A DNA stretch of 64,000 bases from Nageia nagi (lineage: Eukaryota > Plantae > Pinophyta), in NCBI GenBank assembly GCA_050084985.1, contig JBITNC010000002.1, positions 3,100,001 through 3,164,000 on the forward strand, read 5' to 3'. This document shows, in pieces, positions 26,486-52,480 of this stretch. The translations under genes were made by a program, and so were the position numbers. Under the pieces are notes generated by a model. The model ran no database searches and had not been told where the DNA came from. It was given only the letters and a program-made list of their open reading frames with translations. Within the stretch, counting starts at the first letter, position 1. Each line of letters starts with the position of its first letter.

Positions 26486-26581
26486 TTGTGGTATTAGAGC
26501 CTCTTGGTCTTTTGGGTTAGAAGAGATTACATTGCAAGCATTCTTGCAAGTGTACAGTCCAGTCCTGTCATTTTTTGAAAA

Positions 26582-27500: not shown

Positions 27501-27509
27501 GAGACTTGG

Positions 27510-30500
27510 TTGCTAGATACGGGAGCATCAAACCATATGACCAGCAAGTGGGAGTTGTTTTCTTCTTTGAACAACTCATACAAGTCTAAGATCAGACTTG
27601 GAGATGACAATCCATTGCAAGTTGAAGGCATGGGAGCCATGGAGGTAAGCACCATTGAAGGTCCCAAGAAGGTAAAAGACATCTACTATACTCCAAATTT
27701 AAAACACAATTTGTTGAGTGTAGGCCAAATAATGGAGAGAAATTATAAGCTTGTATTTGAGAATTCAAAATGTAAGATTTATGATAAAAATCATGGTAAT
27801 AGGCTGGTCACTTCAGTCCCTATGACCAAAAATCGCTTATTTCCTCTCCAATTTGGTAAAAATAATGGTTCTTCAATTGCAAATGTAGTCATTGACAACA
27901 AGAGTTGGCTTTGGCATCTAAGATATGGTCATCTAAATTTTGTAAATTTGAGATTACTAACATCTCAAACTATGGTCTATGGGCTGCCCAAAGTTGAAGA
28001 TAATAAAAATGAAGTGTGCCAAGGATGTGCTTTTGGAAAGCACTCAAGAAGTAAATTTCCAAGAGGAGAAGCATGGAGGGCCTCTAAACTCCTACAATTG
28101 GTGCATAGTGATCTTTGTGGACCTATGCAAACTCTAAGTATGGGTAAAAATTCTTACTTACTCACTTTTATTGATGATTTCTCTAGATATTGTTGGATAT
28201 ATTTCTTAAAATCAAAAGATGAAGTCTTCAAGCACTTTCAAGATTTTAAGAACCATGTAGAGAATCAAAGTGAATGTAAAGTAAAATGCCTAAGAAGTGA
28301 TAATGGAGGAGAGTATTGCTCTAATGAATTTTTGAAGTTTTACAAGGATTGTGGAATAAAAAGGCAATTCACATCACCTTATACTCCACAACAAAATGGT
28401 GTTTCCGAAAGGAAAAACTGCACTATTGTAGAAATGGCAAGGTGCATGCTACAAACAAAAGAATTGAGCAATCAATATTGGGCTAAAGCATCAAGTACAG
28501 CGGTGTATATTCTCAATAGGAGTCCAACCTCAAGCTTGGAAGGTGTCACTCCTTATGAAGCATGGTTTTTGAAAAAACCCAATGTAAGGCATTTTAGAGT
28601 TTTTGGATGTTTAGCTTATGTACATGTACCAAATGAGCTTAGAAAAAAACTTGATGCAAAAAGTGAGTCATGTATTTTCATAGGCTATAGTGAGTCTTCA
28701 AAGGCTTATAAATTGTATAATCCAAAAATTAGAAAGATTATTGTCTCAAGAGATGTAATTTTTTATGAAGGGGGAGCATGGAGTCATAAAAAACTCTATG
28801 TAAATAATCCTCCTCATGATGTAAATGCCTCTAATATGCAGCCAAATCAGTCCAAGATCAACCCTCCTACAAGGCCTCCAAGTCCTCCAAAGGATTCAAG
28901 CACTTCTTCAAGCACACCATCTCCTTCACCATCTCCAATGGATGAAGACTCTCCAAATCTTGTGAGCAAAGGAAAAAGAATTCTTGCCAATCATCCACCA
29001 CAACAAATGTTAGACAAAAATTTCTCAAGAAGATACACTAGAAGTCAAGCAAATGAACTTCAAGATGTTGTTAGAAGACTTGAGAATTTAAAAATGTATG
29101 GTGATGAAGATGATCAAGCCCCTAAAGGTGATGTGATCAATTATGCTTTGATAACTAGTGTAGAGGTTGAACCTTCTAGTTATGAACAAGCATGTACTAA
29201 TGATGTTTGGGTGAAGGCCATGGAAGATGAAATCTCTTCCATAAAAAGGAATGATACTTGGGAGCTTGTGGAGCTTCCCAAAGGTAAGAAAATTGTTAAT
29301 TGTAAATGGGTCTACAAGACCAAATACAATAGCAATGGCACCATAGAGAGGCACAAAGCAAGGCTTGTGGCCAAAGGCTTTCTCCAAAGGTATGGCATTG
29401 ATTATGAAGAGACCTTTGCACCAGTAGCAAGGCAAGAAACCATTAGATTGGTTCTTTCACTAGCTATCCAAAAAGGTTGGAAAGTAATGCACATGGATGT
29501 AAAAAGTGCATTCTTGAATGGGTATTTGGATGAAGAGGTTTTTGTTGAACAACCTCAAGGCTTTGTAATCCAAGGAAAGGAACATCTTGTATATAATCTA
29601 AAGAAGGCCTTGTATGGCCTCAAACAAGCTCCAAGAGCTTGGTACTCAAGGATTGATGGGTTCTTCCATCAATATGGATTCACTAGGACCAAAAGTGAAC
29701 CTACTCTCTACACCATGAAGCAAGGTAATGATCTCCTACTTGTTTGCTTGTATGTTGATGATCTTATCTTTATGGGGAGTAACTTGAGCATGAATGATAA
29801 CTTTAAGAGTTCCATGATGAAAGAATTTGAAATGAAGGACCTTGGACTCATGCAATACTTCCTAGGCATGGAAGTACTCCAAAAAGATGATGAAAGCTTC
29901 ATTTGCCAATCCAAATATGCCCAAGACATGTTGAAGAAATTTGGTATGATTGATTGCAAATCAGTACCAACACCAATGGCTCATGGAGAGATACTTTGCA
30001 GAGATGATAGCACACCAAAGGCTAATGGGACCAATTTCAGAAGCATTGTGGGAAGCTTGATGTTTCTCACCAACACAAGACTGGATATTGCACATGTAGT
30101 CTCACTTGTTTCAAGGTTCATGAGTGATCCTTCAGAAGCTCATTTAAAAGCCACCAAGAGAATTCTTAGATATGTAAAAGGTACTACCAAATTTGGAATC
30201 TATTACTCAAAAATGGATATTATAAAGCTTGAAGGCTTTAGTGATAGTGATTGGGGTAGTAACATTGATGATAGGAAGTCTACATCAAGGAATTGTTTCA
30301 CTCTTGGGTCTGGTTTTGTAACATGGAGCTCTAAAAAACAAACTATAGTGGCTCTATCCTCTACTAAAGTTGAATACATAGCACTCACAAGTGCTAGTAC
30401 TCAAGCCTTGTGGCTTAGAAAAGTTCTAGAAGAACTTGGAGAAAAGCAAATTGGTCTTACTACATTGTATTGTGACAGCCAAAGTGCCATTCAATTGGCA

Positions 30501-30737
30501 CTTAATCCAGTCCACCATAGTAGATCCAAGCACTTTGACATGAAGTACCACTTCATCAGAGATATGGTGGAGAAAGGAGTAATTGAGCTCAAGTATTGCA
30601 ACACTTTGGACAACATTGCTGATTCTTTCACCAAAGGAGTTGCTAAAGCTCAATTTCTACTGCTGAGGAGCTTTCTAGTAAGTCCCCTCAGCATTAAGGG
30701 GGAGAATGTTGAAGTACCTTGCATGTTTTTGACCTAA
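27510..30737 (+). CDS. pol: Copia pol polyprotein (protease, GAG-pre-integrase, integrase, RT, RNase H), open for 1075 aa
   Basis: LDTGASNHM, LWHLRYGHLN, LVHSDLCGP, LRSDNGGEY, TPQQNGVSERKN, LYGLKQAPRAW, LYVDDL, FSDSDW and LYCDSQSAI in copia order (INT before RT). Confidence 0.96.
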   Translation: MLDTGASNHMTSKWELFSSLNNSYKSKIRLGDDNPLQVEGMGAMEVSTIEGPKKVKDIYYTPNLKHNLLSVGQIMERNYKLVFENSKCKIYDKNHGNRLVTSVPMTKNRLFPLQFGKNNGSSIANVVIDNKSWLWHLRYGHLNFVNLRLLTSQTMVYGLPKVEDNKNEVCQGCAFGKHSRSKFPRGEAWRASKLLQLVHSDLCGPMQTLSMGKNSYLLTFIDDFSRYCWIYFLKSKDEVFKHFQDFKNHVENQSECKVKCLRSDNGGEYCSNEFLKFYKDCGIKRQFTSPYTPQQNGVSERKNCTIVEMARCMLQTKELSNQYWAKASSTAVYILNRSPTSSLEGVTPYEAWFLKKPNVRHFRVFGCLAYVHVPNELRKKLDAKSESCIFIGYSESSKAYKLYNPKIRKIIVSRDVIFYEGGAWSHKKLYVNNPPHDVNASNMQPNQSKINPPTRPPSPPKDSSTSSSTPSPSPSPMDEDSPNLVSKGKRILANHPPQQMLDKNFSRRYTRSQANELQDVVRRLENLKMYGDEDDQAPKGDVINYALITSVEVEPSSYEQACTNDVWVKAMEDEISSIKRNDTWELVELPKGKKIVNCKWVYKTKYNSNGTIERHKARLVAKGFLQRYGIDYEETFAPVARQETIRLVLSLAIQKGWKVMHMDVKSAFLNGYLDEEVFVEQPQGFVIQGKEHLVYNLKKALYGLKQAPRAWYSRIDGFFHQYGFTRTKSEPTLYTMKQGNDLLLVCLYVDDLIFMGSNLSMNDNFKSSMMKEFEMKDLGLMQYFLGMEVLQKDDESFICQSKYAQDMLKKFGMIDCKSVPTPMAHGEILCRDDSTPKANGTNFRSIVGSLMFLTNTRLDIAHVVSLVSRFMSDPSEAHLKATKRILRYVKGTTKFGIYYSKMDIIKLEGFSDSDWGSNIDDRKSTSRNCFTLGSGFVTWSSKKQTIVALSSTKVEYIALTSASTQALWLRKVLEELGEKQIGLTTLYCDSQSAIQLALNPVHHSRSKHFDMKYHFIRDMVEKGVIELKYCNTLDNIADSFTKGVAKAQFLLLRSFLVSPLSIKGENVEVPCMFLT

Positions 30738-31599: not shown

Positions 31600-33070
31600 T
31601 GATAACATCAACATACAAGCAAATGATGATAAAGTTAGATCCATCTACCTTATTCTACAATGTGCATTATGCTAAGCATATGATATCCATTTTGATGCAT
31701 GTAGATGTCAACTCTAGAGTGTTAAGCTCTAGGTGCTTGTTTAAGCTTATAAAGATATTTCTTCAATCTATACACCTCATGTTCATAACCTGCAACTACA
31801 AATCATTCTAGTTAATTCACATAAACTTCTTCAAAAATACCATTTGGGAAGGTTGATTTTACATCCATTTGATAGATGAAAAGACCAAAATAGGAGGCTA
31901 AAGCAAGTACATATATTACTATCTCTAATCTAGTAACTAGTACAAAAGTTTCTTCATAGTCCATTCCTTCACACTAAACAAAACCTTTTACCACTAAGCA
32001 AGCTTTATGTTTGGTAATATTGTCATCAAAATTATACTTTTACCTGTATAGCCATTTATCATCGATATGATTGTTGTTTGGAGGAGGGACAAGCATCCAA
32101 GTATTATTCTTCTCAATTTATTCCATCTCTTCTTCCATGCCCTTTATTCAATTCTCATTTTAAATGGCTTATGTAAAGTTGGAGGCTTTAATGAAGGAAG
32201 ATGATATCAAGGTATAATTGATAACATGATCACCTTACCTTGATTGTTGCCTTATTACTCTCCTTGTAAAATCCTCATCCAACATTTGAGATCATGGATG
32301 ATCCTTATTGATTATTTTCTTCTTAGATTTTCCTCTTGAAGGTGAATTCACTATAGGAGTTTTGGTCTATTGAGGTTGTAATAACTCAACAAGCTCATTA
32401 GAATTTAGATCATCAAACTCAAACTTGGTACCAACTTCATCATACTCCTTCATATATGATCCCCTTTCATTGAAGATCACATCTTGACTAATATAGAACT
32501 TGTTAACAATAGAATCATACTACCTATAGGGTTTTGATTCATTTGAGTATCCAATAAAGGTACACTTGATGAATTTAAATTTGATGGATTTATCATCCAA
32601 TTAATTCATATTATTGTTATAGATATGAACATAATTAGTAGAACCAAATATCCTCAAGTGCACAATGCTTGGTTTCTTATCAAACCAAGCTTTGTAGGTA
32701 GTATAATATTGTATTACTATTGTTGTGTAGTGATTCAAAATATAAATAATTGTATGAAAAAAGTCTTCTCATAGTTTTTGGGATATCTCCATTTATTTTA
32801 ATATGCAATTAACCTTCTCCACCACTATTTTGTTCTTTCTCCTAACCACTCCATTTTGTTGTGTGTATGTTGTTGTATATAGCCTTTTGATTCCATGTAT
32901 GATACAAAAGTTTTTGAATTCATTAGAAGTGAGTTCATCAACATGATCAATTATGAATCTCTTCATACTAAACCTAGATTATTTCTCAACCAATGCTTTG
33001 AATTTGACAAAGAAATTACTTGCAACAAATATAACTAACTCATTCTTGAATGCTCAATGATAAACATTAA
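31600..33070 (-). mobile_element. Heavily decayed Ty1/copia integrase-RT fragment
   Basis: Minus-strand TYTQQNGVVRRKNKIVVE (~32820-32870), KPSIVHLRIFGS, KCTFIGYSNESK and FYISQDVIFNE. Confidence 0.8.
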
Positions 33071-33544
33071 CATGTATATGCACTTAACAATACTTGGAGG
33101 TGAGAGATTGGAGGTGGTTTGGTGTGATAATTTGTAATTACCTCATTTTTGGGTTTTAGTGGTAGTTTTAAAATGCCTCCTTAAATCATAAAGAGATGGG
33201 TGAAAATACCCTAAACATAAACAAAAAATAATAAAAAAATCTCATGCAGGAACTTAGGTGGTCACTTGTAACATTTCAAGTTTTTTGGGAAGAATAATCG
33301 AGCAACTAGAGGACTTACCTTGTACCTTTTCAAGTCTAGGGGATTAGAGCACTTGGAGAGAGTCGATTCGAGTTGAGGTGATTGAGAAGAGCCGAGTCAA
33401 GGTGGTTGTAGAAGAGAGAGTCAAGCTGAGAGGGTTGAGTAGAGTCGAGATGAGAGGGTTTTGGAGAGAGAGTCGAGTCGAGGGGGTTGAGTAGAGACAA
33501 GTAGAGGTTGAGAGAACTCAGGAGGTATTCTTCTATAGATCTTG

Positions 33545-34900
33545 TCAAGAAATTACCATGATTCTAGAATAAAAATATCTATGTTCTTTTTCATAAAATC
33601 GATTTTGTATGTATCCTACAATCATTACATACCATGAAATTGTATTTGCATCATGCATCTTGTCAAACACTTCTTGGGCCTTATGTATTCTTCCACATTT
33701 TACATAAATATATATTAGTGCATTCAAAATCATAATATTTGATTTTCAAGCACCAAGTAGATACATCCATATACCCAATTTAATTTTTATGGGTATTTTT
33801 GCAATTAAGTTCAATTCTCCCTCATGATAGCTTGCATGACCAAGATAGTCAACAATGCATGTATAATGATTCATCCGAGGAATAATGCAATAAGATTACC
33901 TCATTTTGTAAGGGTTTATTCTACATTTTGCATGCATGTCTATTAGGGAATTCAAAACCACAACATTCAATTTACAAGCACCAAGTAGACACATCCACAC
34001 ACCCAATTCAAGTTTTATGGGTATTTTAGCAATGAAGTTCAAATCTCCCTCATGATAGCTCGCACGACCAAGAAGGTCAATAATGCATGTATAATGATTC
34101 ATCCCATAAATAATACAATAAGAGTCCCTCATGTTGTAATGGTTTATTATGCATTTTGCATACATGTCTAGTAGGGTATTCAAAACCACAACAATCAATT
34201 TACAAGCACCAAGTAGACACATCCATATACCCAATTCAAGTTTTATGGGTATTTGGGAAATGAATTTTAAAGATCCCTTAGGATAGTTTCCATGACTAAG
34301 AAGGTCAAAAATGCATGTATAATGATTCATCCTATTAATAATGCAATAAGAGTCCCTCATATTGTAAGGGTTTATACCACATTTTGCATACAAGTTTATC
34401 AGGGCATTCAAAACCATAACATTCAATTTACAAGTACCAAGTAGACACACCCACACACCCAAATTAGGTTTCATGGGTATTTTGGAAATAAAGTTCAACT
34501 CTCCCTTAATATATAATGCACAACCAAGAAGGTAGGGTCAACAATGTATGTATAATGATTCATCCCAAAGAATAATTCATAAGAGTCACTTATGCTATTA
34601 AAGTCTTTATAGCCCTCATCCATTAGACCTACATGGTTGTATGCAAGTAGAACACATACAAAGTTATGTTGTTAGGGTTGGTTCCCACGTACTTTATTAT
34701 ATCAAGGAGTTTGAAAGAATAACATAAGATGCAACTTATTTAGTACATATCCTACAATCATTGTAGTCAATGAAACTATGTTAAATCATGTTAGAGTCTT
34801 TTCAGAAATCCCATTTTGTGCATATCTTACAATCATTGCAGTCCATGAAACTATGTTTGCATCATGCATTTTTTCAATCAATTTTTGGTCCATATGTATT
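33545..34900 (-). pseudogene. Chimeric PLS-class PPR fragments with a 228-bp (76-codon) tandem repeat x4
   Basis: VLNALI(D/N)(M/L)YAKC, MNHYTCIIDLLGRA, GVWMCLLGACK, FDKMHDANTISW and PNNITFVCVLLAYNHVGLMDEG. Anchor CAAG(C/T)ACCAAGTAGA at 33747, 33975, 34203 and 34431. Confidence 0.9.
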
Positions 34901-35519
34901 TAAATTAATCCTTGCAACATTTAACATCTTGTTATATTGAATACATGTTATACTTCTATACTAATTTCTCAATGTTGATATGTGCTCGTAGTTAGAAATT
35001 ACTAGCTTGACAATATGCAAAGTGGCACTATTTTCAAAAAAGAAAAAAAACCAATTGATGATGTCATAATAAATAAGGAGCCAAAAATATATAAGTTTCA
35101 CACCAATATGTATTTGAAATTTAATAGTGTTTCTCAATAATGGTTGACCTGGCCATATTAGAATTGATTATGGTTTTGTTGGTGACTATGGTGTATTGTA
35201 GCAACTTCGAACACTAGATTCATGCGAAAATGTTTAGTGAATAAGTTAGTTGGAAAATATGCAAGTCATTAAAATATTACCAAATTTAATCGCAAGAGTG
35301 CTCTACATTTGTTTAAGAATTTTTTTTCTAATGAGGCTGAAGTTACATTGGTCAATGAGATTGATAGTGCTTTGGTTGAAGAAGATACATGAATTGCATA
35401 AGAAATTTACCCTTGATGTTGGTTACTAATAGTTATTGTTATACATTTCATAATGATGTTTTGATGGTGCCTAGTATATAGGTGTTGATACTAGGTCATC
35501 AAACAATTCAAACTCTCCA

Positions 35520-36430
35520 AAATGAAAAATGAGATATCCAACAAAATTATCAATAAATTTAAGCAACACAAATAAGGTGGAGATAAAAACCCACCTACAA
35601 GGAGAACCCATTAGAGAAATGCCATGACTTTTTCATCTCATTTGGGGATAATAGAAAAGAAGCTTATCACTATCACCTACAAAGATTGGAAAGCAGTCCT
35701 ACATGAACTTAAAAATGATTGTTGGACAATGGTTAAGGTAACTTAGTAGCTAATATATTTCATAATATTCATTTCAATTACTTATGCAAATGTTGCATCT
35801 AGTAATATATTTTTTGCTATAGAAAAAAATTATCATTTTGTACATAACAAAGAAATGAGTGATGATGACCATGTGAAAACTATGAAAAGATATTAAGCCT
35901 AAACATTTGACAAACTATTGTGATATGTATGATAATGACATAGATAAAATTGCTAATACCCTACCTTCTATACAAGTAGAACAATGGGAAGCCTTTATGA
36001 ATAATAGGAATAACATTGACTTTGAGGCAAGTAATGGCAATTCTATTATGGTAGTTCATATAATTGTTATGTGCATGTGAATTTTGCGAACCACCTTACT
36101 CTTCCTAATGAATTTATATATTATTTTGTTCATTGCATTGTAGGCATTAAGGAAAAGGAACAAACAAAATAGATCTTATCAATTTGTCATGCACATTATT
36201 AGTAAAAAAATATATGCTCAATTGGAGCACAAAATGGTATTCTATCATATTCATCCACTGTATGCGATAACATAACCATATTATTTTGTTGTATGACTAA
36301 TCCTCATGTCTCTCATCTATATATCTTGCAAAGGAAGAGCCAATTAAATGTAAACAGTCCACTACCAAGGACACGTGTATGGATGCTAGCTCATAATATA
36401 AAGGATGGGTATTTTGTCACTAGTTATGGT
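35520..36430 (+). pseudogene. CACTA TnpA-like (Ptta/En/Spm transposase family) intron-containing relic
   Basis: Exons read FSSHLGII...YKDWKAVLHELKNDCWTMVK|gt (35737), QWEAFMNNR, ALRKRNKQNRSYQFVMHIISKKIYAQLEHKM (36144-36236, ag/gt bounded) and RTRVWMLAHNIKDG. Confidence 0.8.
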
Positions 36431-37950
36431 AAACTGAGCTTGAGGTAAGTTTCCTCACCCCAAAAGGAAATATGAGCCTGTTAAGGCACTCAAATGATCT
36501 TGTGGTGAGCTCCAATTTGATCCCCTTAAGGCACTCAAATGAGCTTGAGGTGCGTTTCCTCATCCTAAAATGCAATGTGAGTCCCTTACCCCCAAATCAA
36601 TGGAGGGAAATAATGTAATTATGCCTATGATGTAGTTTACAAATGCTTATTTGTGATTTCAAACAATTTTGATGATACAATATAACACTTTGAATGAAAA
36701 CTCAAATCTCTTGGATCCTAGAGATTCAAGGATACCAAATTGATCTAAATTAACTTGTGACCATAAATCTATCAAATGAATGGATAAACAATGTAATTTA
36801 GTATGAAATTATGATGAGCTAAATAGGGTTCTCTCCTCAAATGTGCCCTAAGAGAGGGAAGTTTGGCTCCAAGCTTCGAAATTGGTCCAAAAAGTTCAAA
36901 AATGAACAAATATTCTAACAACTTGTTAGAAATGCAAAATATGATTTCAAAATTGCAAAAATATCTCCAAACTCTAACATCTAGCTATGATGAGTAAATG
37001 CAAAAATAACATAAGCAAATTCCTCTAGTATTCCAACGACTCAATCAGGGAGCAAAAATAGGAAATAAATAATGCAAATACCACTCCAGATCCAAGGTCC
37101 AAGAATAAAATAACATTCATATCAAAATGATAGCAAAGATGTAATTGTATTGATATAATAATGGCAGAAGCATAATTACAATATTCTTTTCTACCTAAGG
37201 AGCTTGTACCAAGACTACCTCCAATAGGATTATGTTAGATGGCTCCAGGGCCTCACCAATCATAGGAGTAGTAAGGTGCATTCCAGGTCTCCTTTGCAAT
37301 AACTATGATGGAACCAATAGCGTTCCTCTTAAGATGGCTAAAGTGATTTTTAAGTTAGCCTCCTCTCACATTAATACCTCAAATGTAGGCTTCCCTACAT
37401 GAGGTAAAGAAAGAGTTCTCACAATTAATCCGAAAAGGGGTTTTAACATCAATAATCAACATCCATCATAATGACCATGAGTCCTCCTTTTATAGGCAAG
37501 GGTGATCATGTTCTAATATTTCATTAAGAGGATCTAACAATGGACAGATCTAATCCATGTGCTCATATTTGCAAAGTCCAATATAGGGGAGCCTTGGTAT
37601 GAATGAAATCATATCTTGATCCAAAATGGATTTTCAGAGTCGTAAAAAAAGGTGATTTTTTAAGTTCTTATTTTTTTGAATTTATTATATAATATTGAAT
37701 AGCTCTCTTTCACGATTTCGATGCTTCAAATGATGAAGAAAACGGAGCTATGGTTTGCAAGTTATGGCTCTTCAAAGTTTGGAGTTAAATATAAAAAATG
37801 CAAAATATGCATGGAAGGCTCTATTAACGGACTCACTAGGAGTAGCTTGGATTGACTAAAAGATTCAAATTTGGATAATTGGTAACTTGTATTATGATGA
37901 ACATATGGTTAAAATTTGAAAATATTTAGATAAAATGCTTGAAATTTATG
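36430..37950. mobile_element. LTR-like retroelement-derived non-coding segment truncating the CACTA relic
   Basis: Short internal repeats (TTAAGGCACTCAAATGA x2, GAGCTTGAGGT x2), minus-strand CCTATAAAAGG (~37490), no coding signal. Identity is inferred. Confidence 0.35.
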
Positions 37951-37959
37951 GTGCTTATA

Positions 37960-40900
37960 AAATGGTAAATTCTCATGATGTGAAATTCATTTGGGATGAA
38001 AAATGTTAGCAATGTTTTAAAGAAATCAAAAGGTATAACTTGAATCCTCCTATTTTAGCTTCTATTGATTATTCAAGACCTTCGTAATTATATATTAAGC
38101 TACATTGAAGGCCTTTGGGGAAATGTTGGATCAAAATGGTGAAGACAAGAAAGAAAGAGAAATATATTACATTAACAATTGGTGGATTGTGAGATAAGGT
38201 ACAATCCCATTGAAAATCTTTATTTTTCTACTATCTTTTATTTCTAAAAAATTAAGGCATTGAATGCTCAACAACACCGCATATGTAATTGCCTAAGTTG
38301 ATCCATTAAGGTACTTTCTCTCTAAGCCTCATTTATCATGAAGAGTTTCCAAATAGGTTATGTTGTTACAATAATCAGATCTAATTTTCATCTATCCGAA
38401 AGCAATTAAAGGTCAAGTGATACTAAATTTTAAGGTTGAGTCTCCATGTGAGGATACATCCCCACTTAATGAGAAATTTTCAAATGAATTTGTATCTTTT
38501 TTTTCAATAATAAGACACTTTGACAATTTATTTTAATGGTTCAAAGTCCATTATGGTATTTGATGTAGGTATTATACTAATATCTCCTAAGGTGGTATCA
38601 TCCCCTTGGCATACAAACTTACTTTTGATTACACAAACAATATGGTTGAGTATGAGGTATTTATATTTGGAGTTATGGCTATAATTTTATTGAAGGTAAA
38701 GAAAATTAAGATTCGTGTTGATTCTTAATTGGTCATAAATCATTTTAATGGCATTTACAACACCAAAGATGATAAACTAGTCCCCTACAAAAGCCTAGTT
38801 GATTATTTCCTAATAAGGCATTTTAAAGAAGTGATAATTGAGAATATTCAAAGGAATAATAATATTTGTGTTGATGCATCGGCCAATGAAAACCATTTAT
38901 CCCCCATTCCAAAATGAAGAAACAATTGTGAAAACTAAAAAATTTTGTAAACCCTCTCATATGACAAATGAATGGTGTTTTCCTTCCTTATGATGTGAGA
39001 TATAAAGACATATATGCTTTCATCAAAGATGGAATAATCCTCTAAGAGTTTGAGAGAATCCAAATAATAAGATTAAGAAATATAGTTGCAAAATATGTGC
39101 TTTTTGGATATGTATTATATAGAATATCATTTCAGGGTACTTCTATCAAATGTTTATTCATTGATGATGGTAGAAACATAATGGAACAAGTTCATGAAGG
39201 TGCAAGAGTTGGTCATTTCAATGGTAAGATAATATATCATAATCTTTTGATATTGGATTAGTATTATTCATTTATATAAAAATATTATGCTTATTATTTC
39301 AAGGAGTGTGTAGGATATCAAAAGCATGCAAATCTCTAGGTCACTCCTTTTCAAGAACTCTACATAATGGTCTCTCCATGGCCATTCTCTATTTGTACAA
39401 TAGATTTGATAGGAGTGATTAATTGAAGATCAAAAGAGGGTCATAAGTTCATAATAATGGTAATATAATATTCCACAAATTCGATGGAAGCTTCTCCTCT
39501 AATATCATCAAAAGGAACTTAGATTATCAAATTCCTCATTGAACATGTCATAACTAGATTTGGAGTTCCATCTAAAATCCTCGAGAGCAATGTCCCAAAT
39601 ATGGGAAGTAAAGTGGTGAATGATTTCTATGAAATATTTCATATTCAACAAAAGTTATCTTCTCCATATTATCTATAAGGAAATGGTCAAAATGAAGTAA
39701 CCAATAAGACCATTGTAAATATTCTTTACAAAATAATTAAAAAGCATGGAAAATATTGAAATGAGAAATTGTCATATGATCTATGGGCATATAGGAAAAT
39801 TTGTGGTCAACCACAACATGCACTCAATATTCTCTCATTTATGGAGATGAAGAATCCCTTCCTTTGGAGATTGATATTCCATCACTAAGAATATCTCTTG
39901 AAGGAATCATTAATGAAGAAGATATAAGAGTAACATAGTTAAGGCGTTTAGAAGCTCTTGATAAGAAAAGGAAAAATACTCAAGTATCTTAGGGTATATT
40001 AAGGTAGAATCAAAAGAGACTAAAATAATAAAATAAAGACAAATGAGTTCAAGGTTGGAGATCTTATCCTCAAAGATAATCATCATAAGCCTAAGGTTAA
40101 AAAAAATAAGAAAAGATGAGTAAGTTTGAGTTCAATTGGATTAGACCTTTTGTGGTAGGTGCGGAGTATGGTAAGCATGCTTATAAATTTTAAACATTTA
40201 AGGAAAGGAGGATAATTATCCTACTAATGTTAATCACTTGAATCTCTTTCAAATTTGATCATTATTAGAGGGAACCAATTTAAGTTTTGAAGTGCAAATT
40301 TTGCTTAATAATTACTAATGAATATATTTTCTAGTCTTCAAGTTTCATTTTCTCTCTAATATCAAGTACTTATTTTTGAAAATGTTTGAACACAACCTAT
40401 TTTGAACCATAATTGACTATAAGATTAAGTTCTTCAACCTTGTTTGCAATTTTTTCCACAAAAGTACATTAGTTTTTGTCATAATGGAAAGTTGCCACGC
40501 AAATATGGTTACTCCTAGTAGATCAATTTCTAGGAATTGTAGGCCTATTTTGAAGATTAGAATAGGTGAAAATATGACCATTCCATCATAAAGATCCTAT
40601 ATTAGAAATTTTAAGTTAAGATAGATTGGTTATTGAGCACCAACTCTTCAAGATCAATCTAAGGACCTACACTCGAATCTTAGGAAAAGTTTCAAAATTC
40701 TTAAGAATCTCAAGTTCATTGCCAACAGGAAGTCTAGGTATCATTTTCTATAACTTTAAGAGCTATTGTTTTTTGAATAAAATTTTATATTGTATTTAAG
40801 TTTCTTTAGCACCTAATTTTGATCTTTGGGATAAAATAAGATCCTTCATAGTAACCCCATGATGATGTGGATCCTTGACTCATTTTGGTACTTTGGAATA

Positions 40901-41720
40901 AATAAGTACCCATAATGGCAATCTCATTGTAAAGATCATGGTTCTAGCATACTCCATAAGAGGTGTTTAGTTCTGATATCACTTTTATGGTTATGGTATT
41001 AACCATCGTCATACACCCTTTTATGGTCGAGGCATTAACCATCTATGTTCTATCCCATTGGTTCTTTAACCATGAAGTATCATCATATGTTATGATTTAT
41101 AATTCATATTATGTTTATCTCAAATTATGATAATATTTCATGATATAATTCATCATAATATATAATTTTATAAATGACTTATTAGCTAAATCAAAGAAAA
41201 AGAAAAACCATATACAAGACTTAAAGGTAAAATTTTGAAGGTTGAGACAATATAAGTTAAGGCTAACACCTTTAAAATATGCATTTTGGGTAATATTAGG
41301 AAATTTTTTGGTATTTATTATTTCTAGAAGAGGAACTGAGGTATATCCAAAGAAAGCAAAAAAAAAAATTCATTTCCTTCAAATCACAAATAATTAAGAA
41401 GTTTTTTAAGGAAACAAATTTTCTTTAACGAATGACCCATACTTAGGAGATATATATGTTTCTCTTTTAGAGGTATTTTTTTTATTATCTTTTCACAAGT
41501 TCTTTACCTTGATGTCATCCATTTGATGAAGCTTATACTACAAAAATAAAGGCATAGAGATGGCATAAAATGACCATTCAAAATGGACAATCTAATATTA
41601 TTGTTATGATTAATTCTTAGATTATTCAGTTACTCTTTATATCTTCCATATTATGCTTTTTATTCTTTTTAATGTGTAATTGTATGGTGAATACCATCAC
41701 TCTTTAAAATGGGGGAAACC
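37960..41720 (+). mobile_element. Decayed Ty3/gypsy (Tat/Ogre-type) pol 3' half: RNase H, additional RNase H, integrase, 3' UTR
   Basis: KFIWDEKC, NPPIL, KEREIYY, TNNMVEYE, SPWPFS, TRFGVPSKI and GNGQNE. A displaced RT fragment (RLRQYKLRLTP...IISRRGTEVYPKK) sits at ~41220-41360, and a PPT-like tract at ~41706-41718. Confidence 0.85.
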
Positions 41721-41780
41721 ATTCACATCTAATATATAAACATATTTCTTTTTAATATATCTTAAAAATAAGTGTTAATA

Positions 41781-42900
41781 CACTACAAGAAAATTGAGCT
41801 TTGATGTTGGCTAATTTATAGAAGTTCTCTGATAGTGGTTTATAACCATCATTATTATATATATTAAAGGTAGAATTTAACGAGGGCTTTAAACCACCAT
41901 CACAAAATATATTATATGGTGGATTTTAATGATATTATTATAGCCACCCTCATATAAACTACTCTGGTAGATAAAAACTATCATAAAAGTTTACACATAA
42001 AAATAAAAAAGCTCCACATGGGCATGCATCACTTCAAAATTTTAAGGTCTACTGCCAAACCAAAGAAAATGAGGTGAGAGGAGAATAGAAGAGGTGAGAA
42101 ATAACACATGAGTAAACTTGGTGAGGAGGGCAAGACCATAACCAAGAAACACATATTACGAGCAAACAAGATGAGGAGGGTGAGATATTGGTTTACTTAG
42201 GGTTTGGGCATCACTAAACTTTTCAAGGTACCAAGTAGAGAGAAGAGAAACAAGTAGAGGTTAGGGTTTCATATGGAATAACTCCATCACCATTACTTAC
42301 AAATTGGTCAATTTACGAAGCAAATCACTCCATATTATAGAAATTAGAGTTTATTAGTATGTTATTTATCTTTTACGATCAAGAAGATCAACCATACATG
42401 TATTGTGTAATTTCATTCATTATGGGTATAATAAACATTCATGAATTGGAAGAAAACCCAACAAATACAAGCAAATGAAGGGAGGAAGGTGAGAAACATG
42501 AGGCAAATGATTCCATCACCATTACCTACAAACTGGTCAAGGTATTAAGTAAACAACTCTACACTACAATATTTTTCTACTGTTGGCATGCATTTTGGTG
42601 TTATTAGCATTTTGCATACATGTCTATCAAGATTTTATCATAGTATCATGTGAAAGAAACCCACATCTAGTTATTTTTCCATGCCCCATTTTTTTCAAAT
42701 AAAACATTTTTCATCTTCTCCCACATTTTGCATACATGTCTATCAAGGTTGTTATCATAATTTCATATGAAAGAAATCCACATCTTGTTATTTGTATATG
42801 AACCATTTTGTTCAAACAAAAACCTTGCCATTTTAATGCTCCCACATTTTGCATACATGTCTATCCGGATTGTTATGCATGGATCATTGCCTATTTGTAA
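41781..42900 (+). mobile_element. CACTA 5' end with subterminal repeats and captured antisense PPR fragments (Pack-CACTA-like), truncated
   Basis: Canonical TIR CACTACAAGAAAA at 41781; subterminal ACCATCA/CCACCATCA motifs in both orientations; three GCATACATGTCTAT motifs (minus IDMYAKC) at ~42615, 42730 and 42851. Confidence 0.8.
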
Positions 42901-44277
42901 TACAACTACAAAATCATGGTAGTCAAAGACTTTGCTAAAATAAATCATTTGCTAGAAAAGGTTTTATTCCATTTCTATAACAAACATCCTTTAGTCAATC
43001 ACTAGTAATCACCACATGAACATTTTCCATTCTTGAAGTGGTGAAAATAGTTGGAATCTCTTGTAACAATTTCTCACACAGCAATTTTGGATAGAAACTT
43101 TTTTGCAGAGCAAAAATTAACATATACCTGAAGGTTCTTTACAACTTAAATGTTCATGCAAGAGGATGTGCTTAATAAACAAAAAGAAATTGTTATTTTT
43201 CTCAATATGGTAGTGAAGAATTTATTCCTTCTCTTCCTCCTTGACATCTTGTAGAAAAAATATGTCCATACAAGGTATGGTAGCAAAATGTCAAATGTAA
43301 GAGAAAAGTACAATTAAGATTTTCTTTACTCTCTTAATACCATAGTACCAGGTTACTTGTAAGCCCTTCTTTAGCATTTATTATTCATCCACATAGAGAA
43401 GAATCAATCCTAAACCTTTTCTTTCCTTGAGCACATATAAATATGAATTTTTGTGGTACTTAGAGATCCAATAGCTTCAAAGTACCTTGAAATATTATCA
43501 TACCAACCATTAGGTGCTTGCTTAAGTCCATACAAGGACATCATCTATATTCATCCTCATTCTTTAACCATGAAGTATCATCATATGTTATGATTTATAA
43601 TTCATATTATGTTTATCTCAAATTATGATAATATTTCATGATATAATTCATCATAATATATAAGTTTATAAATGACTTGTTAGCTAAATCAAAGAAAAAG
43701 AAAAACCATATACAAGACTTAAAGGTAAAATTTGGAAGGTTGAGACAATATAAGTTAAGGCTAACACCTTTAAAATATGCATGTTGGGTAATATTAGGAA
43801 ATTTTTTGGTATTTATTATTTCTAGAAGAGGAACTGAGGTATATCCAAAGAAAGCAAAAAAAAATGTCATCTCCTTCAAATCACAAATAATTAAGAAGTT
43901 TTTTAAGGAAACAAATTTCCTTTAACGAATGACCCATACTTAGGAGATATATATGTTGCTCTTTTAGAGGTGGTTTTTTTATTATCTTTTCACAAGTTCT
44001 TTGCCTTGATGTCATCCATTTAATGAAGCTTATACTACAAAAATAAAGGCATAGAGATGGCATAAAATGACCATTCAAAATGGGCAATCTAATATTATTG
44101 TTATGATTAATTCTTAGATTATTCTGTTACTCTTTATATCTTCCATATTATGCTTTTTATTCTTTTTAATGTGTAATTGTATGGTGCATACCATCACAAT
44201 TTAAAAGGGGGGAAACCATTCACATCTAATATATAAACATATTTCTTTTTTGTATATATTAAAAATAAGTGTTGATA

Positions 44278-45410
44278 CACTACAAGAAAATCGAGCTTTG
44301 ATGTTAGCTAATTTATAGAAGTTCTCTGATAGTGGTTTATAACCATCATTATTATATATATTAAAGGTAGAATTTAACGAGGGCTTTAAACCACCATCAC
44401 AAAATATATTATATGGTGGATTTTAATGATAGTATTATATCCACCCTCATATAAACTACTCTGGTAGATAAAAACTATCATAAAAGTTTACACATAAAAA
44501 TAAAAAAGCTCCACATGGGCATGCATCACTTCAAAATTTTAAGGTCTACTGCCAAACCAAAGAAAATGAGGTGAGAGGAGAAGAGAAGAGGTGAGAAATA
44601 ACACATGAGTAAACTTGGTGAGGAGGGCAAGAACATAACCAAGAAACACATATTACGAGCAAACAAGATGAGGAGGGTGAGATATTGGTTTACTTAGGGT
44701 TTGGACATCACTAAACTTTTCAAGGTACCAAGTAGAGAGGAGAGAGAGGAGAGAAACAAGTAGAGGTTAGGGTTTCATATGGAATAACTCCATCACCATT
44801 ACTTACAAATTGGTCAATGTACGAAGCAAACCACTCCATATTATAGAAATTAGAGTTTATTAGTATGTTATTTATCTTTTACGATCAAGAAGATCAACCA
44901 TACATGTATTGTGTAATTTCATTCATTATGGGTATAATAAACATTCGTGAATTAGAAGAAAACCCAACAAATACGAGCAAATGAAGGGAGGAAGGTGAGA
45001 AACATGAGGCAAATGATTCCATCACCATTACCTACAAACTGGTCAAGGTATTAAGTAAACAACTCTACACTACAATATTTTTCTATTGTTGGCATGCATT
45101 TTGGTGTTATTAGCATTTTGCATACATGTCTATCAAAATTTTATCATAGTATCATGTGAAAGAAACCCACATCTAGTTATTTTTCCATGCCCCATTTTTT
45201 TCAAATAAAACATTTTTCATCTTCTCCCACATTTTGCATACATGTCTATCAAGGTTGTTATCATAATTTCATATGAAAGAAATCCACATCTTGTTATTTG
45301 TATACGAACCATTTTGTTCAAACAAAAACCTTACCATTTTAATGCTCCCACATTTTGCATACATGTCTATTCGGATTGTTATGCATGGATCATTGCCTAT
45401 TTGTAATACA
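44278..45410 (+). mobile_element. Duplicate copy of the CACTA 5' end with PPR fragments
   Basis: CACTACAAGAAAA at 44278; PPR piece IDMYAKCGSIKMVRFLFEQ in ORF 45269-45454. Confidence 0.8.
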
Positions 45411-45419
45411 ACTACAAAA

Positions 45420-47678
45420 TCATGGTAGTCAAAGACTTTGCTAAAATAAATCATTTGCTAGAAAAGGTTTTATTCCATTTCTATAACAAACATCCTTTAG
45501 TCAATCACTAGTAATCACCACATGAACATTTTCCATTCTTGAAGTGGTGAAAATAGTTGAAATCTCTTGTAACAATTTCTCATACAACAATTTTGGATAG
45601 AAACTTTTTTGCAGAGCAAAAATTAACATATACTTGAAGGTTCTTTATGACTTAAATGTTCATGCAAGAGGATGTGCTTGATAAACAAAAAGAAATTGTT
45701 ATTTTTCTCAATATGGTAGTGAAGAATTTATTCCTTCTCTTCCTCCTTGACATCTTGTAGAAAAAATATGTTCATACAAGGTATGGTAGCAAAATGACAA
45801 ATGTAAGAGAAAAGTACAATTAAGATTTTCTTTACTCTCTTAATACCATAGTACTAGGTTACTTGTAAGCCCTTTTTTAGCATTTATTATTCATCCACAT
45901 AGAGAAGAATTAATCCCAAACCTTTTATTTCCTTGAGCACATATAAATATGAATTTTTGTGGTACTTAGAGAATCCAATAGCTTCAAAGTACCTTGAAAT
46001 ATTCTCATACCAACCATTAGGTGCTTGCTTAAGTCCATACAAGGACAACATCATAAGATTGATCTTTATACTCAAGTAGATAACTAAAGGTCATCATACT
46101 AAAGTCATATATGAAGGTAAGGACATAAGATGCTCCTCTAAGTGACTTAGATTTAAATGGATCCATCAAATCTGAATGAATCAATCGAAGAAGTTGATTT
46201 TCCCTTGTTGCCTTATCCTTCTCAATTTTTTTCCTTTTCATCTTCTGTAAGATGCAACTTTCACAAAGGCCAATGGTAGGTGAGATTGTTGGCAATCCTC
46301 CACAAGATTTTGATTCTTCACAAGTTGAATATTTTTATGGTTGATGTGGCCTAATCTTTGGTTCTAAAGGTTACCCTTAGAATAAATATTTATAGTTATC
46401 CACATTTTAGTATACTCCTCATCAATTATGTAGAGGTCATTCTTAATAGATTATTTTATCAAGGTGGTCAATCCTTTCCTTATGCTCCAAGAGCTTGAGT
46501 TAAACTCAAAGGAATATCCTTTTCTTACTACTTCAATGATCTATATAATATTCATCATCAACTTAGGCATATAAAACATATTCTCAATCACTTTACCATG
46601 CATCAAAATGCTTCCAACTCATTGACTTCAAGCATTGAGTTGTCACAAATCACTACTGCATCTTCTTTATGATTATGAAAATTTTGAAACTTATCCTTTT
46701 CAAAACATGTGATTAGTGCAACCTGTATCAAATATCCAATCATGTGAAAGTGAACGAGACTTGGAGTAAAGACCATAAACATAAGCACTTTTATTATTAT
46801 TCTTTCCATTAAAATTATTTAGCTTTCCTTTTTCTTTATTATTTTCCTCTTTCTTCTTGAAGCAATGGGTCTCTTTGTGACCATAAATGCCATAAAAGTT
46901 ATAATTACCATCAAATTTATCTTTTCCATTAGAAGTATTTAACTTTCTTTTTCCTTCATGATGTTTTTACACTTTTTCCTACATTACTCTTAGGATGAGC
47001 ATTAGAAGATTTCTTATGATCCTTAAACTTCTTTGTGAAGTGAAGCTTGGTTTCTCTTAAGGCAAGGTTGTGATCTTTTAAAGTATGCACTAACATCTTT
47101 TTGTTGAGGGTTTCTTCATGCTTTAAGAGGAGCCTAAAGAGATTATCCAAGCAGAAGGCTTCCTCTTCATCATCAAGTCTTATCTCAATAACAATCACAA
47201 AATGACTAAACTTGATCAAAAGGCTTTATAGGATGATGAACACCATGAATTCTTCATTAATCTAATTACATTCACAACCCATGAGTTGAATCCTTAGATT
47301 GATAATTTTGGTCAAATAAATTACCACACTCTCATCCTCCCCTTAACAAGTTTGCAAGAGCTTTTAGAGGATGGTGAACCTTATAGATAATTTTAACCCA
47401 AGGTAAATCTCCTTAAGTTGATCTCAAGATTCTTTTGTGAAAGTTGAACTTGAGATCATTAGAAGGAATTCATATGAAATTGCTTGAAAAATTATTAAGG
47501 TTTCCAACTCATTCTTATTATTATAAGTCTCTAAGGCCTTAGGTTTTGTAGGAGCAACTTGATCTTCATTTATTATTTTCCAAAGCTTTTATGCTTAAAG
47601 CTTTGCTTTTATTCTTGGTTCCCAAATACCATAATTAGAATCATTAAGGATGTATTTTGGTGCAAAGGAGTCTCCCAT
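45420..47678 (-). mobile_element. Decayed Ty1/copia with an internal deletion (RT part duplicated at ~42910-43540)
   Basis: gag start MGDSFAPKYILNDSNYGIWE at 47678; LIHSDLMDPFKSKSLRGASYVLTFIYDFS (integrase) joined at ~46047 directly to SLYGLKQAPNGWY...LLYVDE (RT). Confidence 0.88.
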
Positions 47679-49320
47679 TTTTTATAAAATAAGATCAATT
47701 TTAGATTAAGATATAAGAAGTACATTAAGAGAGTATGAAATCAATATTACACTTTTTAAGAAAATTGCAAATTGTTAATCGAATTGATAATCAACTTTAA
47801 CCATTATAGTCCAAGAATTTAAACAAATTAACCAACCAACATTGTTAAATTATCAATTGTTAACCAAAATTAGCCAATATCGTTGCAAAGGAAACTCATA
47901 TAAATTTGAAAATAAATTGTAAATTGCAGGTTGTAAATTGTAAATTGTAAGTTGTGTTAGTAGCTTTATAATGTAAGTTTCTTTATGTAGAGTTGTAAGT
48001 CATGTTAGTGCACTTAATTTTAATACCGAATAAATTGTAGGTTAGTAAGACCTTATCTACAATTTTAGGTTAGTATTTATTATCAATTGTATTGAACCAT
48101 TAGGAAAGGAGAAGACCGAACAACAAGGGTTAGTAGTTTTTCTTAGAGTTAGTAGTTAGTTACATGACAATGGTCTAAGAAATTTTACAACATGATCTTG
48201 TCATTCAAACATAAGAGTCTTATCATAGAACAAAGATCAATTTGCATAATTATTGCTAAGAAAGAGGAAGATTCATTTAATAATCCATAGCAGACTAATC
48301 ATTTAAAACGCATTGAGCGCACAAGCCTGGGAAGTTATAAAAATGCTTAAGAATCATATTCTTTTTACTCTGAAGCATTACCTTTTTTCATGTATTTATG
48401 TCCTTTCTTTCACCTTAACCTTCCTTCAAATTTATTCTTTCTTCTTTTCAATTGCTTTCATTTTTACAATAGGATTCCTCCATTTCCTATGCTTAGAAGA
48501 CATCACAAAAGATCCTCTTTGTATTTTTGAAGGACAAGGTTAGTTCAAAGAGAAGGAAAAGAAAATCAACAACTTGCTCAAAAAATTAATACCTTGCTAA
48601 AAAGTTAACTTCTCCCCTTAATTTTTGATAAAGAAAGATAATGCCCCTTACTTAGGAGCAAAATATTCCCTTTATTTAATGTCTTAAAAACTCCACTTTT
48701 AAAAAGTTTAAAAAAAAAACTCCTTTTTTAAAAAAATAGAGTTTACAAAAATGTAACTCCTCCTTCCTTTATTTTTTTTTTAAATAGAGTTAGAAAAAAA
48801 TACTCTTCTTAAAAACAAATTGAACTCCAATTAAAAAATTTGAGTTAATAAAACATCCCCTTTCATGAATATATATATATATAATTTAAAAACATATGTG
48901 AAGGAATAATGAAATAAGGAATATGTTATTAATGAATTGCAGTGGCCATGTACTCGATCTATAACGACAACTGCCAGGTCAGAGATCAAGGTTCCTCATT
49001 CACTCATCAATCCCATCCATCTTGGAGCAGACAGGGAAATAGTTTCACCACAAGGGTAAAAGAAAAGAAGCAGTTAATGCAGGAAGCACAATTTCCTCAA
49101 AGCATGCACTAGTTCCTTGGATTTATACATACATCAAGACCTACTAATGGAGATGGAATAGGGGTCCGTGAAGTGTTGGCTGGGAGGTGGGCATCGTCGA
49201 AAAAGGAGAACCAACAGGGGCGATGAGGTGAAGTCATTGGGCAGGGTAGGATGCGGAGGTTCGAGGGGCGAGAGGGAGGAGGTGGGTGGCAGCGCCGCCC
49301 AAGTCCAGCCGCATGATACC

Positions 49321-50079
49321 AAAAAAATTTTAATGCTTGTAAATTTATTTGTCCATCAGCCACATGACATAAATGAGTTTTTTTATTAAAAAAAAAATGT
49401 TTCAAGCAATGATTAAATATTTATTTTTAACTGACATTGTTCTCCTAAAAAAATCTTTTTCAACAACTATTTGGTGGATGTCCATACCTTCTTCTATGGC
49501 TTCCATTAAAAAATGTAAATGCCCCTTTTACAATAGTATTTGTAAAAAACTAATGTCCATTTATAGCTTTCATAAAAATTATTTTTCCTTCCCCTCTAAA
49601 ACAAAAATGATTTATATATATATATATAACAATTTTGTAACAAAGTTGTAAAATTACAAATTTCTCAGTATTTCTACATAAAAGATTTTAGTGTAAAAAA
49701 ATTTTAATGCTTGTAAATTTATTTGTCCCATCAGCCACATGACATAAATGAGTTTTTTTATTAAAAAAAAAATGTTTCAAGCAATGATTAAATATTTATT
49801 TTTAACTGACATTGTTCTCCTAAAAAAATCTTTTTCAACAACTATTTGGTGGATGTCTATACCTTCTTCTATGGCTTCCATTAAAAAATGTAAATGCCCC
49901 TTTTACAATAGTATTTGTAAAAAACTAATGTCCATTTATAGCTTTCATAAAAATTATTTTTCCTTCCCCTCTAAAACAAAAATGATTTATATATATATAT
50001 ATAACAATTTTGTAACAAAGTTGTAAAATTACAAATTTCTCAGTATTTCTACATAAAAGATTTTAGTGTAAAAAAATTT
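49321..50079. repeat. ~375-bp near-perfect tandem duplication
   Basis: Units start at 49321 and 49695; one substitution and one 1-bp indel seen; bounded by AAAAAAATTT. Confidence 0.95.
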
Positions 50080-50937
50080 GCAAGTTTATACTACCACAAA
50101 CTTCATGATAAGTGTTCAGAGTAAATGCTCACAACAATATATTATTGCTCAATGTTAAGCAATATTGACTAAAAATAATTGCAACTAACATAAAAGATTA
50201 GTATGTAAAAGAAATTATAACAATAATATATTGTTATATTAAGCAATTTTTTTCAAAAAAAATTACAATTAACACACAAAAAAAATGTTAGTATCATAAA
50301 GTAAAAAAGATAGGAGGTTATACCTTTAGATGGTTTTACCTCACAAATGAATTAGGAAGAACCTTCAAGTAGGCTATGGTCCTAATTGAAAGGAGACTAA
50401 GTCTACTACATCCAAGATCATCGTGGAGTAATCTTCTTCCTCTAAACTACAACTCAAGAATAATCTCAATAACACAATCTTATACACACAAAAGTGACAT
50501 AAGATATATAGTGGTTCCTCTCAATAAGAGAGTACTCCACTCTAATATAGATCTTATTACTTCTCAAGAGCATACTCTTATAATGCAATACTAGAACTCT
50601 TTCCTCCTATCCTTCTACATATTAAGAGCATTATAATGCTCTCTATAAGAGTGAAGAATGCTTGAGGGGAGCCCTCAATTTATAGGAAAAAATCTCACTT
50701 TGGCTCACCCTTTTATCTAACAAGAACACCAAAGATCAAAGAATAAACATATCCTCAAGTGGGATGAGTGTAGGCCAACTTTCAATATTTAATTCACTAA
50801 ATACTTAAAAGGTATTTAAGAATACTTTTAAGTATCAAATGGATTAAATAGATATTTACATAAAGAGAAGAGATATTATTCTTTAGATACTACCTAAAGA
50901 AAAATTAATACAATAATGCATTATTTGTTCTAACAAT

Positions 50938-52209: not shown

Positions 52210-52480
<271 letters not shown>

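What the first reader, a model, noticed from the sequence alone, without database searches (positions are those of the whole stretch)
33081..45410. CACTA elements carrying antisense, tandemly amplified PPR fragments: candidate Pack-CACTA small-RNA system against PLS-PPR genes
Seen: two distinct CACTA-related segments (33081-36430 with a TnpA relic; 41781-42900 with a perfect CACTACAA TIR, duplicated at 44278) share a layout of element end, purine-rich tract (common ACAAGTAGAGGTT), then PPR pieces antisense to the element direction. In both, the PPR piece is chimeric and tandemly iterated (228-bp vs ~115-120-bp period), and both units contain the IDMYAKC-coding stretch. Known: CACTA elements capture host gene fragments; this motif is highly conserved across PLS-class PPR RNA-editing factors; PPR families are common phasiRNA/tasiRNA targets. 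Inference: a mobile family spreading antisense copies of a widely shared PPR motif could produce trans-acting small RNAs against many PPR genes. It could equally be inert captured debris.
Basis: partly seen in the sequence, partly recalled or inferred. Interest (0 to 1): 0.78.

Follow-up and report, generated by a model that had tools for sequence, protein, structure and literature searches.

The report
Conifer transposons carrying scrambled PPR cargo
Two decayed DNA-transposon segments in a conifer genome (one with a CACTA end, one likely CACTA) carry scrambled, tandemly repeated pieces of RNA-editing (PPR/DYW) genes; the same pieces recur in great numbers in DNA of related plants, and they are likely silenced passenger DNA rather than a tuned small-RNA regulator.

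Summary
Mostly real, with corrections.

Confirmed: both segments hold minus-strand PLS-PPR pieces in tandem arrays (228 bp, 117 bp) that are not collinear with a gene. 41781 is a true CACTACAAGAAAA end.

Corrected:
- 33081 is Copia coding sequence, so segment 1 has no TIR.
- 44278 is part of a 2.5-kb local duplication.

It is a family. Two independent contigs share segment 1's flank and cargo. The chimeric E1-to-S1 junction occurs in 6 of 21 short ORFs and 0 of 129 long PPR proteins. In four DNA runs of relatives, summed contig depth over the cargo is 54-176 times that over the TnpA-like flank.

The small-RNA reading gets no support from sequence. Only 3 of 8 arrays hold the IDMYAKC stretch, it is more diverged than the rest of the unit, the frame drifts neutrally and CHG sites are depleted as in methylated TEs. 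No small-RNA data could be tested.

Best reading: Pack-CACTA-like capture of a conifer PLS-DYW clade, amplified, scrambled and silenced. siRNA cross-talk with PPR genes is possible but unshown.

The parts
31683..33097 (-). Decayed Copia integrase/RT relic that abuts segment 1; contains the 'CACTT' at 33081 that was read as an element end
   Evidence: tblastn with the window's intact Copia ORF, E 1e-74; frame continues across 33081
33097..33560 (+). Segment 1: 5'-truncated subterminal region and purine-rich tract; putative splice donor AG|GTATT at 33525 (inferred)
   Evidence: Aligns with L001 and L002 flanks, z 15 and 21 against shuffles; L002 continues about 250 bp further left
33560..34962 (-). 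Segment 1 cargo: P2-L2-S2-part of E1, then 76-codon units (S1 first half, L2 tail, S2, part of E1), ending in S1-P; array 33691-34587, period 228
   Evidence: (PF01535 E 3e-9); pN/pS 1.10 and CHG o/e 0.13; motif names assigned from recalled PLS nomenclature
34963..35563 (+). Spacer between cargo and TnpA-like exons; part (35060-35201) is shared with L002 2853-2992 next to a PPR array
   Evidence: blastn, tblastx E 8e-9; X2 contig bridges 34880-35189
35564..36430 (+). Four-exon relic (35564-35737, 35823-36026, 36144-36236, 36334-about 36430), likely CACTA TnpA; broken
   Evidence: Splice sites; PF03004 E 0.046 on exon 3 only; no homologue found
41781..42010 (+). Segment 2: CACTACAAGAAAA terminus and subterminal inverted motifs (AACCACC-type)
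   Evidence: depth step at the end; weak homology to L002 subterminal region, z 5.5
42070..42265 (+). Segment 2 purine-rich tract ending in ACAAGTAGAGGTT
   Evidence: Sequence; shared 13-mer P about 0.03
42373..42414 (-). Short S2-motif fragment
   Evidence: Translation; depth peak in bin 42372-42438
42590..42945 (-). Segment 2 array of L-tail + S1 units, period about 117 bp, frameshifted
43005..43290 (-). DYW deaminase C-terminal fragment, placed upstream of the PPR motifs in PPR sense (out of order); broken
   Evidence: PF14432 E 9.7e-19; 60% identity over 65 aa to Cryptomeria P0128; junction bridged by contigs in X1, X2, X3
43542..46052 (+). Second copy of a 2.5-kb local tandem duplication (first copy 41040-43545); holds the TIR at 44278 and the same cargo
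   Evidence: blastn 97% over 2516 columns

Best explanation
These are decayed pieces of what are likely non-autonomous CACTA (Pack-type) transposons, which likely captured parts of conifer PLS-DYW RNA-editing genes, spread with them, and are now likely methylated passenger DNA. Shown: the cargo is scrambled PPR/DYW sequence; the same flank-plus-cargo layout and the same artificial junctions occur in other contigs; different copies hold different tandem units (98-395 bp); the reading frame drifts neutrally; CG and CHG sites are depleted. Inferred steps: (1) an ancestral element took up the 3' part of a PLS-DYW gene, antisense, between its 5' end and its TnpA exons, probably within the first intron; (2) transposition multiplied it; (3) slippage or unequal exchange between similar PPR motifs built a different array in each sub-lineage; (4) host silencing froze it, and later Copia/Gypsy insertion and local duplication broke both copies here. 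Any siRNAs made while silencing such copies would partly match PPR genes, as a by-product rather than a selected function (untested).
For: Family: 2 of 13 metagenome loci carry chimeric arrays, and both have segment-1-type flanks. L001 is 72% identical and collinear with segment 1 over about 740 bp, including the E1-to-S1 junction. Junction in 6 of 21 short ORFs and 0 of 129 long proteins. Abundance: 13,912-55,994 contigs laid on 4 kb in 4 of 4 runs; cargo depth 54-176 times the TnpA-like flank. Donor: closest intact proteins are Cryptomeria and Ginkgo PLS(-DYW) proteins; host is a conifer by its aldehyde oxidase (Taxus 68%, Ginkgo 62%). Decay: pN/pS 1.10 against a neutral null of 0.96-1.07; CHG o/e 0.13 and 0.29 in the cargoes against 1.19 in the window's gene exon. 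Eight arrays with eight periods. TE gene capture is common in gymnosperms (PMC13477047, section 12); silent CACTA elements in Wollemia are methylated and make 21/24-nt siRNA (PMC10473749 passages).
Against: No element with both TIRs and a 3-bp TSD was seen in the window, L001 or L002, and no contig spans TIR to cargo. Segment 1 has no TIR, and its TnpA call is weak (E 0.046; no homologue; no match to L002 frames, P 0.84-0.99). The cargo is far more abundant than the flanks, so most PPR-like copies in relatives are not shown to sit in CACTA elements. Depth is not a copy number and includes true genes and pseudogenes. L001 and L002 were picked by similarity to segment 1. No genome assembly was available.
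Confidence: 0.68

Rival explanations
1. A selected trans-acting small-RNA system: the elements act like TAS loci and make siRNAs aimed at the conserved IDMYAKC codons of many PPR mRNAs.
For: The 27-mer at 42720 is 2 mismatches from intact PLS genes in 4 of 11 ordinary loci. 18 of 461 and 12 of 227 sampled 21-mers of the two cargoes are within 3 mismatches of those loci, against 1 of 304 for the TnpA control. PPR genes are phasiRNA sources and miRNA targets in spruce (PMC4651229 passages) and TAS/miR7122 targets in eudicots (PMC5902766 passages).
Against: 3 of 8 arrays hold the motif; it is among the most diverged parts of the 228-bp unit (0.22 against 0.13; 93% of 27-nt windows are as conserved or more). 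No inverted repeat in the arrays and no Rfam match. Both copies are truncated and show TE-like methylation decay.
Confidence: 0.1
2. The PPR pieces are an abundant repeat spread mainly by something else (Helitrons, LTR elements, retroposition or satellite-like growth), and only a minority ride in CACTA elements.
For: Cargo depth exceeds flank depth 54-176-fold. Two more PPR pieces in the window (23514-24229, 49450-49506) show no segment-1-type flank. PPR expansion by retroposition is reported in early land plants (PMC13386178 passages).
Against: Flanks of related copies align only with many gaps and mismatches, so they would tend to fall under the 80% cut-off while PPR motifs cross-match. All 3 array clusters in L001 and L002 have a segment-1-type flank on at least one side.
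Confidence: 0.14
3. Each segment is one decayed PPR pseudogene into or beside which a CACTA element inserted by chance.
For: Conifer genomes hold many pseudogenes; the window is a nest of broken elements.
Against: Motif order is scrambled (E1 to S1; DYW before PPR motifs). The same junctions and non-PPR flanks recur in other contigs and runs.
Confidence: 0.05
4. The in-frame 76-codon repeat encodes a new chimeric repeat protein.
For: 228 bp is a multiple of 3, and a 213-codon stop-free stretch exists.
Against: pN/pS 1.10, and 2 stops in 3 units against about 1.8 expected under drift. Related copies are frameshifted and no long protein has the junction.
Confidence: 0.03

Closest known systems
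Pack-CACTA elements (Arabidopsis Pack-CACTA1a, PMC6379663 passages; soybean and morning-glory elements cited there)
   Same: CACTACAA terminus; host gene fragments inside; terminal deletion derivatives
   Different: Cargo here is one gene family (PLS-PPR/DYW) rebuilt into tandem arrays of many periods; apparent abundance is far above the ten Col-0 members; segment 1 keeps TnpA-like exons; paired TIRs and TSD not seen
TE gene capture and epigenetic conflict (maize, bioRxiv 10.1101/777037 abstract; gymnosperms, PMC13477047 section 12)
   Same: Captured exon fragments in silenced TEs can share siRNAs and methylation with donor genes; capture is very common in conifers
   Different: The gymnosperm paper does not mention PPR in its main text or two supplements; the maize abstract reports no copy-number gain for TEs with captured fragments; cross-talk is untested here
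TAS1/TAS2 and miR7122/miR1509 noncoding PHAS loci that target PPR genes (PMC5902766 passages); spruce PPR PHAS loci (PMC4651229 passages)
   Same: Noncoding sequence complementary to many PPR mRNAs
   Different: No trigger site, transcript or phasing shown; no conservation of the would-be guide; TE context with methylation decay
Conifer PLS-DYW genes (Cryptomeria XP_057854690.2, XP_059067676.1, XP_059067789.1)
   Same: Closest intact proteins; shared S2/E1 signatures; 60% identity over 65 aa of DYW
   Different: Window pieces are partial, out of order, broken and antisense to the element

Membership tests
CACTA (En/Spm) / Pack-CACTA | Terminus starting CACTA (CACTACAA) | tested here: met
   Segment 2 at 41781. 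Not met for segment 1, whose end is lost.
CACTA (En/Spm) / Pack-CACTA | Paired TIRs with a 3-bp target-site duplication | tested here: inconclusive
   No matching second end in the window, L001 or L002; copies are broken and no genome was held.
CACTA (En/Spm) / Pack-CACTA | Subterminal direct and inverted motifs (recalled feature) | tested here: met
   AACCACC-type motifs at 41781-42010; homology to L002 6170-6540, z 5.5.
CACTA (En/Spm) / Pack-CACTA | TnpA (PF03004) or TnpD remnant | tested here: inconclusive
   Exon 3 PF03004 E 0.046, 14.3 bits against cut-off 28.7; 3 other exons no hit; splice sites intact; no homologue.
CACTA (En/Spm) / Pack-CACTA | Internal host-gene fragments carried by several dispersed copies | tested here: met
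   PPR/DYW cargo with shared flank and junctions in L001, L002 and runs X1-X3; these come from related organisms, not this genome.
TAS-like / PHAS locus | Transcript cut by a 22-nt trigger, giving 21-nt phased siRNAs | not testable with these tools
   No small-RNA data; no RNA holder listed.
TAS-like / PHAS locus | Guide sequence conserved above its neighbours | tested here: not met
   Motif in 3 of 8 arrays; 0.22 against 0.13 divergence in three units; small sample.
TAS-like / PHAS locus | Cleavage of target mRNAs at paired sites | not testable with these tools
   No degradome data.
Functional PLS-DYW gene | Intact collinear (PLS)n-P2L2S2-E1E2-DYW frame under purifying selection | tested here: not met
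   Scrambled order, stops, frameshifts, pN/pS 1.10.

The most novel reading that the evidence does not exclude
Conifer genomes of this lineage hold on the order of ten thousand or more CACTA-borne copies of scrambled PLS-PPR/DYW sequence. Silencing this reservoir yields siRNAs that methylate or cut the real editing-factor genes, so a DNA transposon family sets the expression and turnover of a whole RNA-editing gene clade, and may itself have moved and shuffled that clade.
Probability: 0.2. Interest if true: 0.78.

Novelty: new variant of a known kind. Interest (0 to 1): 0.47.

Why it matters
Gene capture by CACTA elements is known. A single gene family captured, rebuilt into many different tandem arrays and apparently amplified to very high copy was not found in the papers searched. 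It would inflate PPR gene and pseudogene counts in conifer annotations. It also offers an unusually strong test of the epigenetic-conflict model: one donor clade of organelle RNA-editing factors facing a large pool of silenced look-alikes. If no cross-talk is found, it is a large but inert class of conifer repeat.

Tried and rejected
Searches that gave nothing:
- No genome held, so no in-genome copy count or TSD search.
- No RNA holder listed; this says nothing on expression.
- Run X21 (RNA is a guess) laid 70 contigs on 41300-43300, none over 41568-42371. They cannot be told from ordinary PPR mRNAs or DNA, so they were not used.
- Viral contigs: 57 pattern hits, none confirmed.
- Rfam: 0 matches in 32500-46100.
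- Pfam on whole intron-containing frames of the TnpA-like relic and of segment 2: 0 hits in 6 of 6 frames.
- Homologue search for exons 2-3 among longer proteins: 51 candidates, none scored.
- TnpA-like exons did not match the L002 left end (P 0.84-0.99), so a TnpA relic there is not claimed.
- A language-model look-alike search of exon 1 and a six-frame Pfam scan of 17200-26500 and 46300-55500 gave no result, so the TnpA identity and the vehicles of the other PPR pieces stay open.
- Three look-ups of earlier findings: two empty, one with 8 unrelated PPR notes.

Readings rejected:
- 33081 as a TIR.
- 44278 as an independent insertion.
- The shared 13-mer as a family signature.
- The 76-codon repeat as protein-coding.
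- Antisense orientation as evidence of function.

Rows left out:
- 11 of 13 loci were ordinary PLS genes, used only as references.
- The first, partial unit of the 228-bp array was left out of the pN/pS and motif tests (3 of 4 units used).
- A stricter junction pattern found 3 short ORFs; the looser one found 6.
Full report
Setting. No assembly was held. The window is a nest of broken elements beside aldehyde oxidase exons whose best relatives are Taxus (68%) and Ginkgo (62%), with listed angiosperm proteins near 50% or lower. The host is therefore inferred to be a conifer.

Observation, confirmed parts. Six-frame translation shows PPR motifs on the minus strand at 33560-34962 and 42590-42945 (PF01535 E 3e-9). 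TRF gives periods of 228 (3.9 copies) and 117 (2.3 copies). The 228-bp unit joins part of E1 to the first half of S1, then to the tail of L2 and S2. The 117-bp unit is an L tail plus S1 (motif names from recalled PLS nomenclature; alignments). CACTACAAGAAAA stands at 41781, and contig depth steps up there (9 to 216 in X1).

Observation, corrections. (1) 33081 lies inside Copia integrase codons, so segment 1 has no TIR and begins about 33097. (2) 44278 belongs to a 97% identical 2.5-kb tandem duplication. (3) Segment 2 also holds an S2 piece near 42373-42414 and a DYW fragment at 43005-43254 (E 1e-18), which lies before the PPR motifs in PPR sense, the reverse of a real gene. (4) The shared 13-mer is marginal (P about 0.03). 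(5) The TnpA call is plausible, with four exons and intact splice sites, but it rests on one weak Pfam hit (E 0.046) and recalled motif likeness; searches added no support.

Is it a family? A homologue search returned 6 short ORFs with the same unit among 392 candidates. A metagenome scan gave 13 loci, 11 ordinary PLS genes and 2 with chimeric arrays. L001 is about 72% identical and collinear with segment 1 and keeps the E1-to-S1 junction. Its non-PPR flank, and that of the right-hand cluster in L002, align with 33097-33590 (z 15 and 21). The left-hand cluster of L002 is followed by the same spacer as segment 1 (E 8e-9). The junction pattern occurs in 6 of 21 short proteins and 0 of 129 long ones among the 150 HMM hits. 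Contigs in X1, X2 and X3 bridge the DYW-to-S1 junction of segment 2, and one in X2 bridges cargo to spacer in segment 1. No contig spans TIR to cargo, and no element with two TIRs and a TSD was seen. The closest intact proteins are Cryptomeria and Ginkgo PLS or PLS-DYW proteins.

Abundance. On 32800-36800, 52,630, 55,994, 29,348 and 13,912 contigs were laid in 4 of 4 runs. Mean summed depth over the cargo was 54-176 times that over the TnpA-like exons. The tool warns that this is no copy number, and the sum includes true genes, pseudogenes and other subfamilies. If the longest contigs (depth about 5-8 in X1) stand for single loci, the top bins would imply on the order of ten thousand PPR-like copies; that is a rough inference. 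Two further PPR pieces elsewhere in this 64-kb window fit high density.

Is there selection? Among three full 228-bp units pN/pS is 1.10 (neutral null 0.96-1.07), with 2 stops against about 1.8 expected. CHG o/e is 0.13 (segment 1) and 0.29 (segment 2) against 1.19 in the gene exon, as in the Copia ORF (0.27). The window, L001 and L002 give 8 PPR arrays with periods 228, 117, 114, 395, 236, 133, 98 and 295 (the duplicate counted once). Only 3 of 8 hold the IDMYAKC 27-mer within 9 mismatches, though a heavily decayed copy would be missed. Within the 228-bp unit the motif differs at 18 of 81 pairwise sites against 78 of 603 elsewhere. That follows from the conservation of the motif in genes and does not show use.

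Mechanism. Most likely (0.68) a Pack-CACTA-like lineage captured the 3' part of PLS-DYW genes, spread, grew a different array in each branch by exchange between similar motifs, and was silenced. A GTATT donor-like site follows the purine tract in segment 1, L001 and L002, which suggests the cargo sits in the first intron and is spliced out; this is inferred. Rivals: another main vehicle (0.14), a selected tasiRNA-like system (0.10), chance insertion in a pseudogene (0.05), a coding repeat (0.03).

Literature seen. PMC6379663, passages: Pack-CACTA with CACTACAA TIRs, 3-bp TSD and terminal deletions. PMC13477047, abstract, section 12, passages and a search of 2 supplements: about 400,000 captured fragments per gymnosperm genome, donors more methylated, 'PPR' 0 hits. 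10.1101/777037, abstract only. PMC10473749, PMC4651229, PMC5902766, PMC13386178 and PMC13317346, passages only. Searches for CACTA with pentatricopeptide in conifers or gymnosperms gave 0, 11 (none on point by listing) and 0 papers. Searches showed no description of this family by listing. Subscription journals are mostly not searched.

Verdict. A real, corrected feature and a new variant of a known kind. The surprise is the apparent scale and the single-family, self-scrambling cargo, not a demonstrated regulatory system. Interest 0.47.

Noticed in passing
window 23514-24229 (-): Third PPR fragment (N-terminal S-P-L region, Pfam PPR_2 E 2e-10), starting 55 bp outside a different CACTA end (CACTACTACAAAAA read leftwards from 23459); no segment-1-type flank found.
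   Followed up: partly
window 49450-49506 and 49825-49881 (-): Short L-motif-like PPR piece inside a 375-bp, 99% identical tandem duplication (49321-50079); matches L001 and L002 cargo.
   Followed up: partly
L002 3100-5950 and 6880-9635: Two PPR-array clusters in opposite orientation, head to head; read-through would give a long imperfect inverted arrangement of PPR sequence.
   Followed up: no
window 11768-16681 (-): Aldehyde oxidase 5' exons present twice about 2555 bp apart, the second copy cut short; another local duplication of about 2.5 kb, like 41040-46052.
   Followed up: partly
window 27501-30737 (+): Copia pol frame open for 1078 codons, preceded by gag-like ORFs at 26579-27500, with CpG o/e only 0.04.
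   Followed up: no
window 17300-22000 (-): Frames hold endonuclease- and RT-like stretches that look like a decayed LINE (recalled motifs; not scanned).
   Followed up: no
window 36430-40280 and 54600-60400 (+): Two decayed, mutually similar elements with RNase H/integrase-like frames, likely Gypsy; the first cuts off the TnpA-like relic.
   Followed up: no
window 52215-52462: A (TC)n microsatellite of about 128 units.
   Followed up: no
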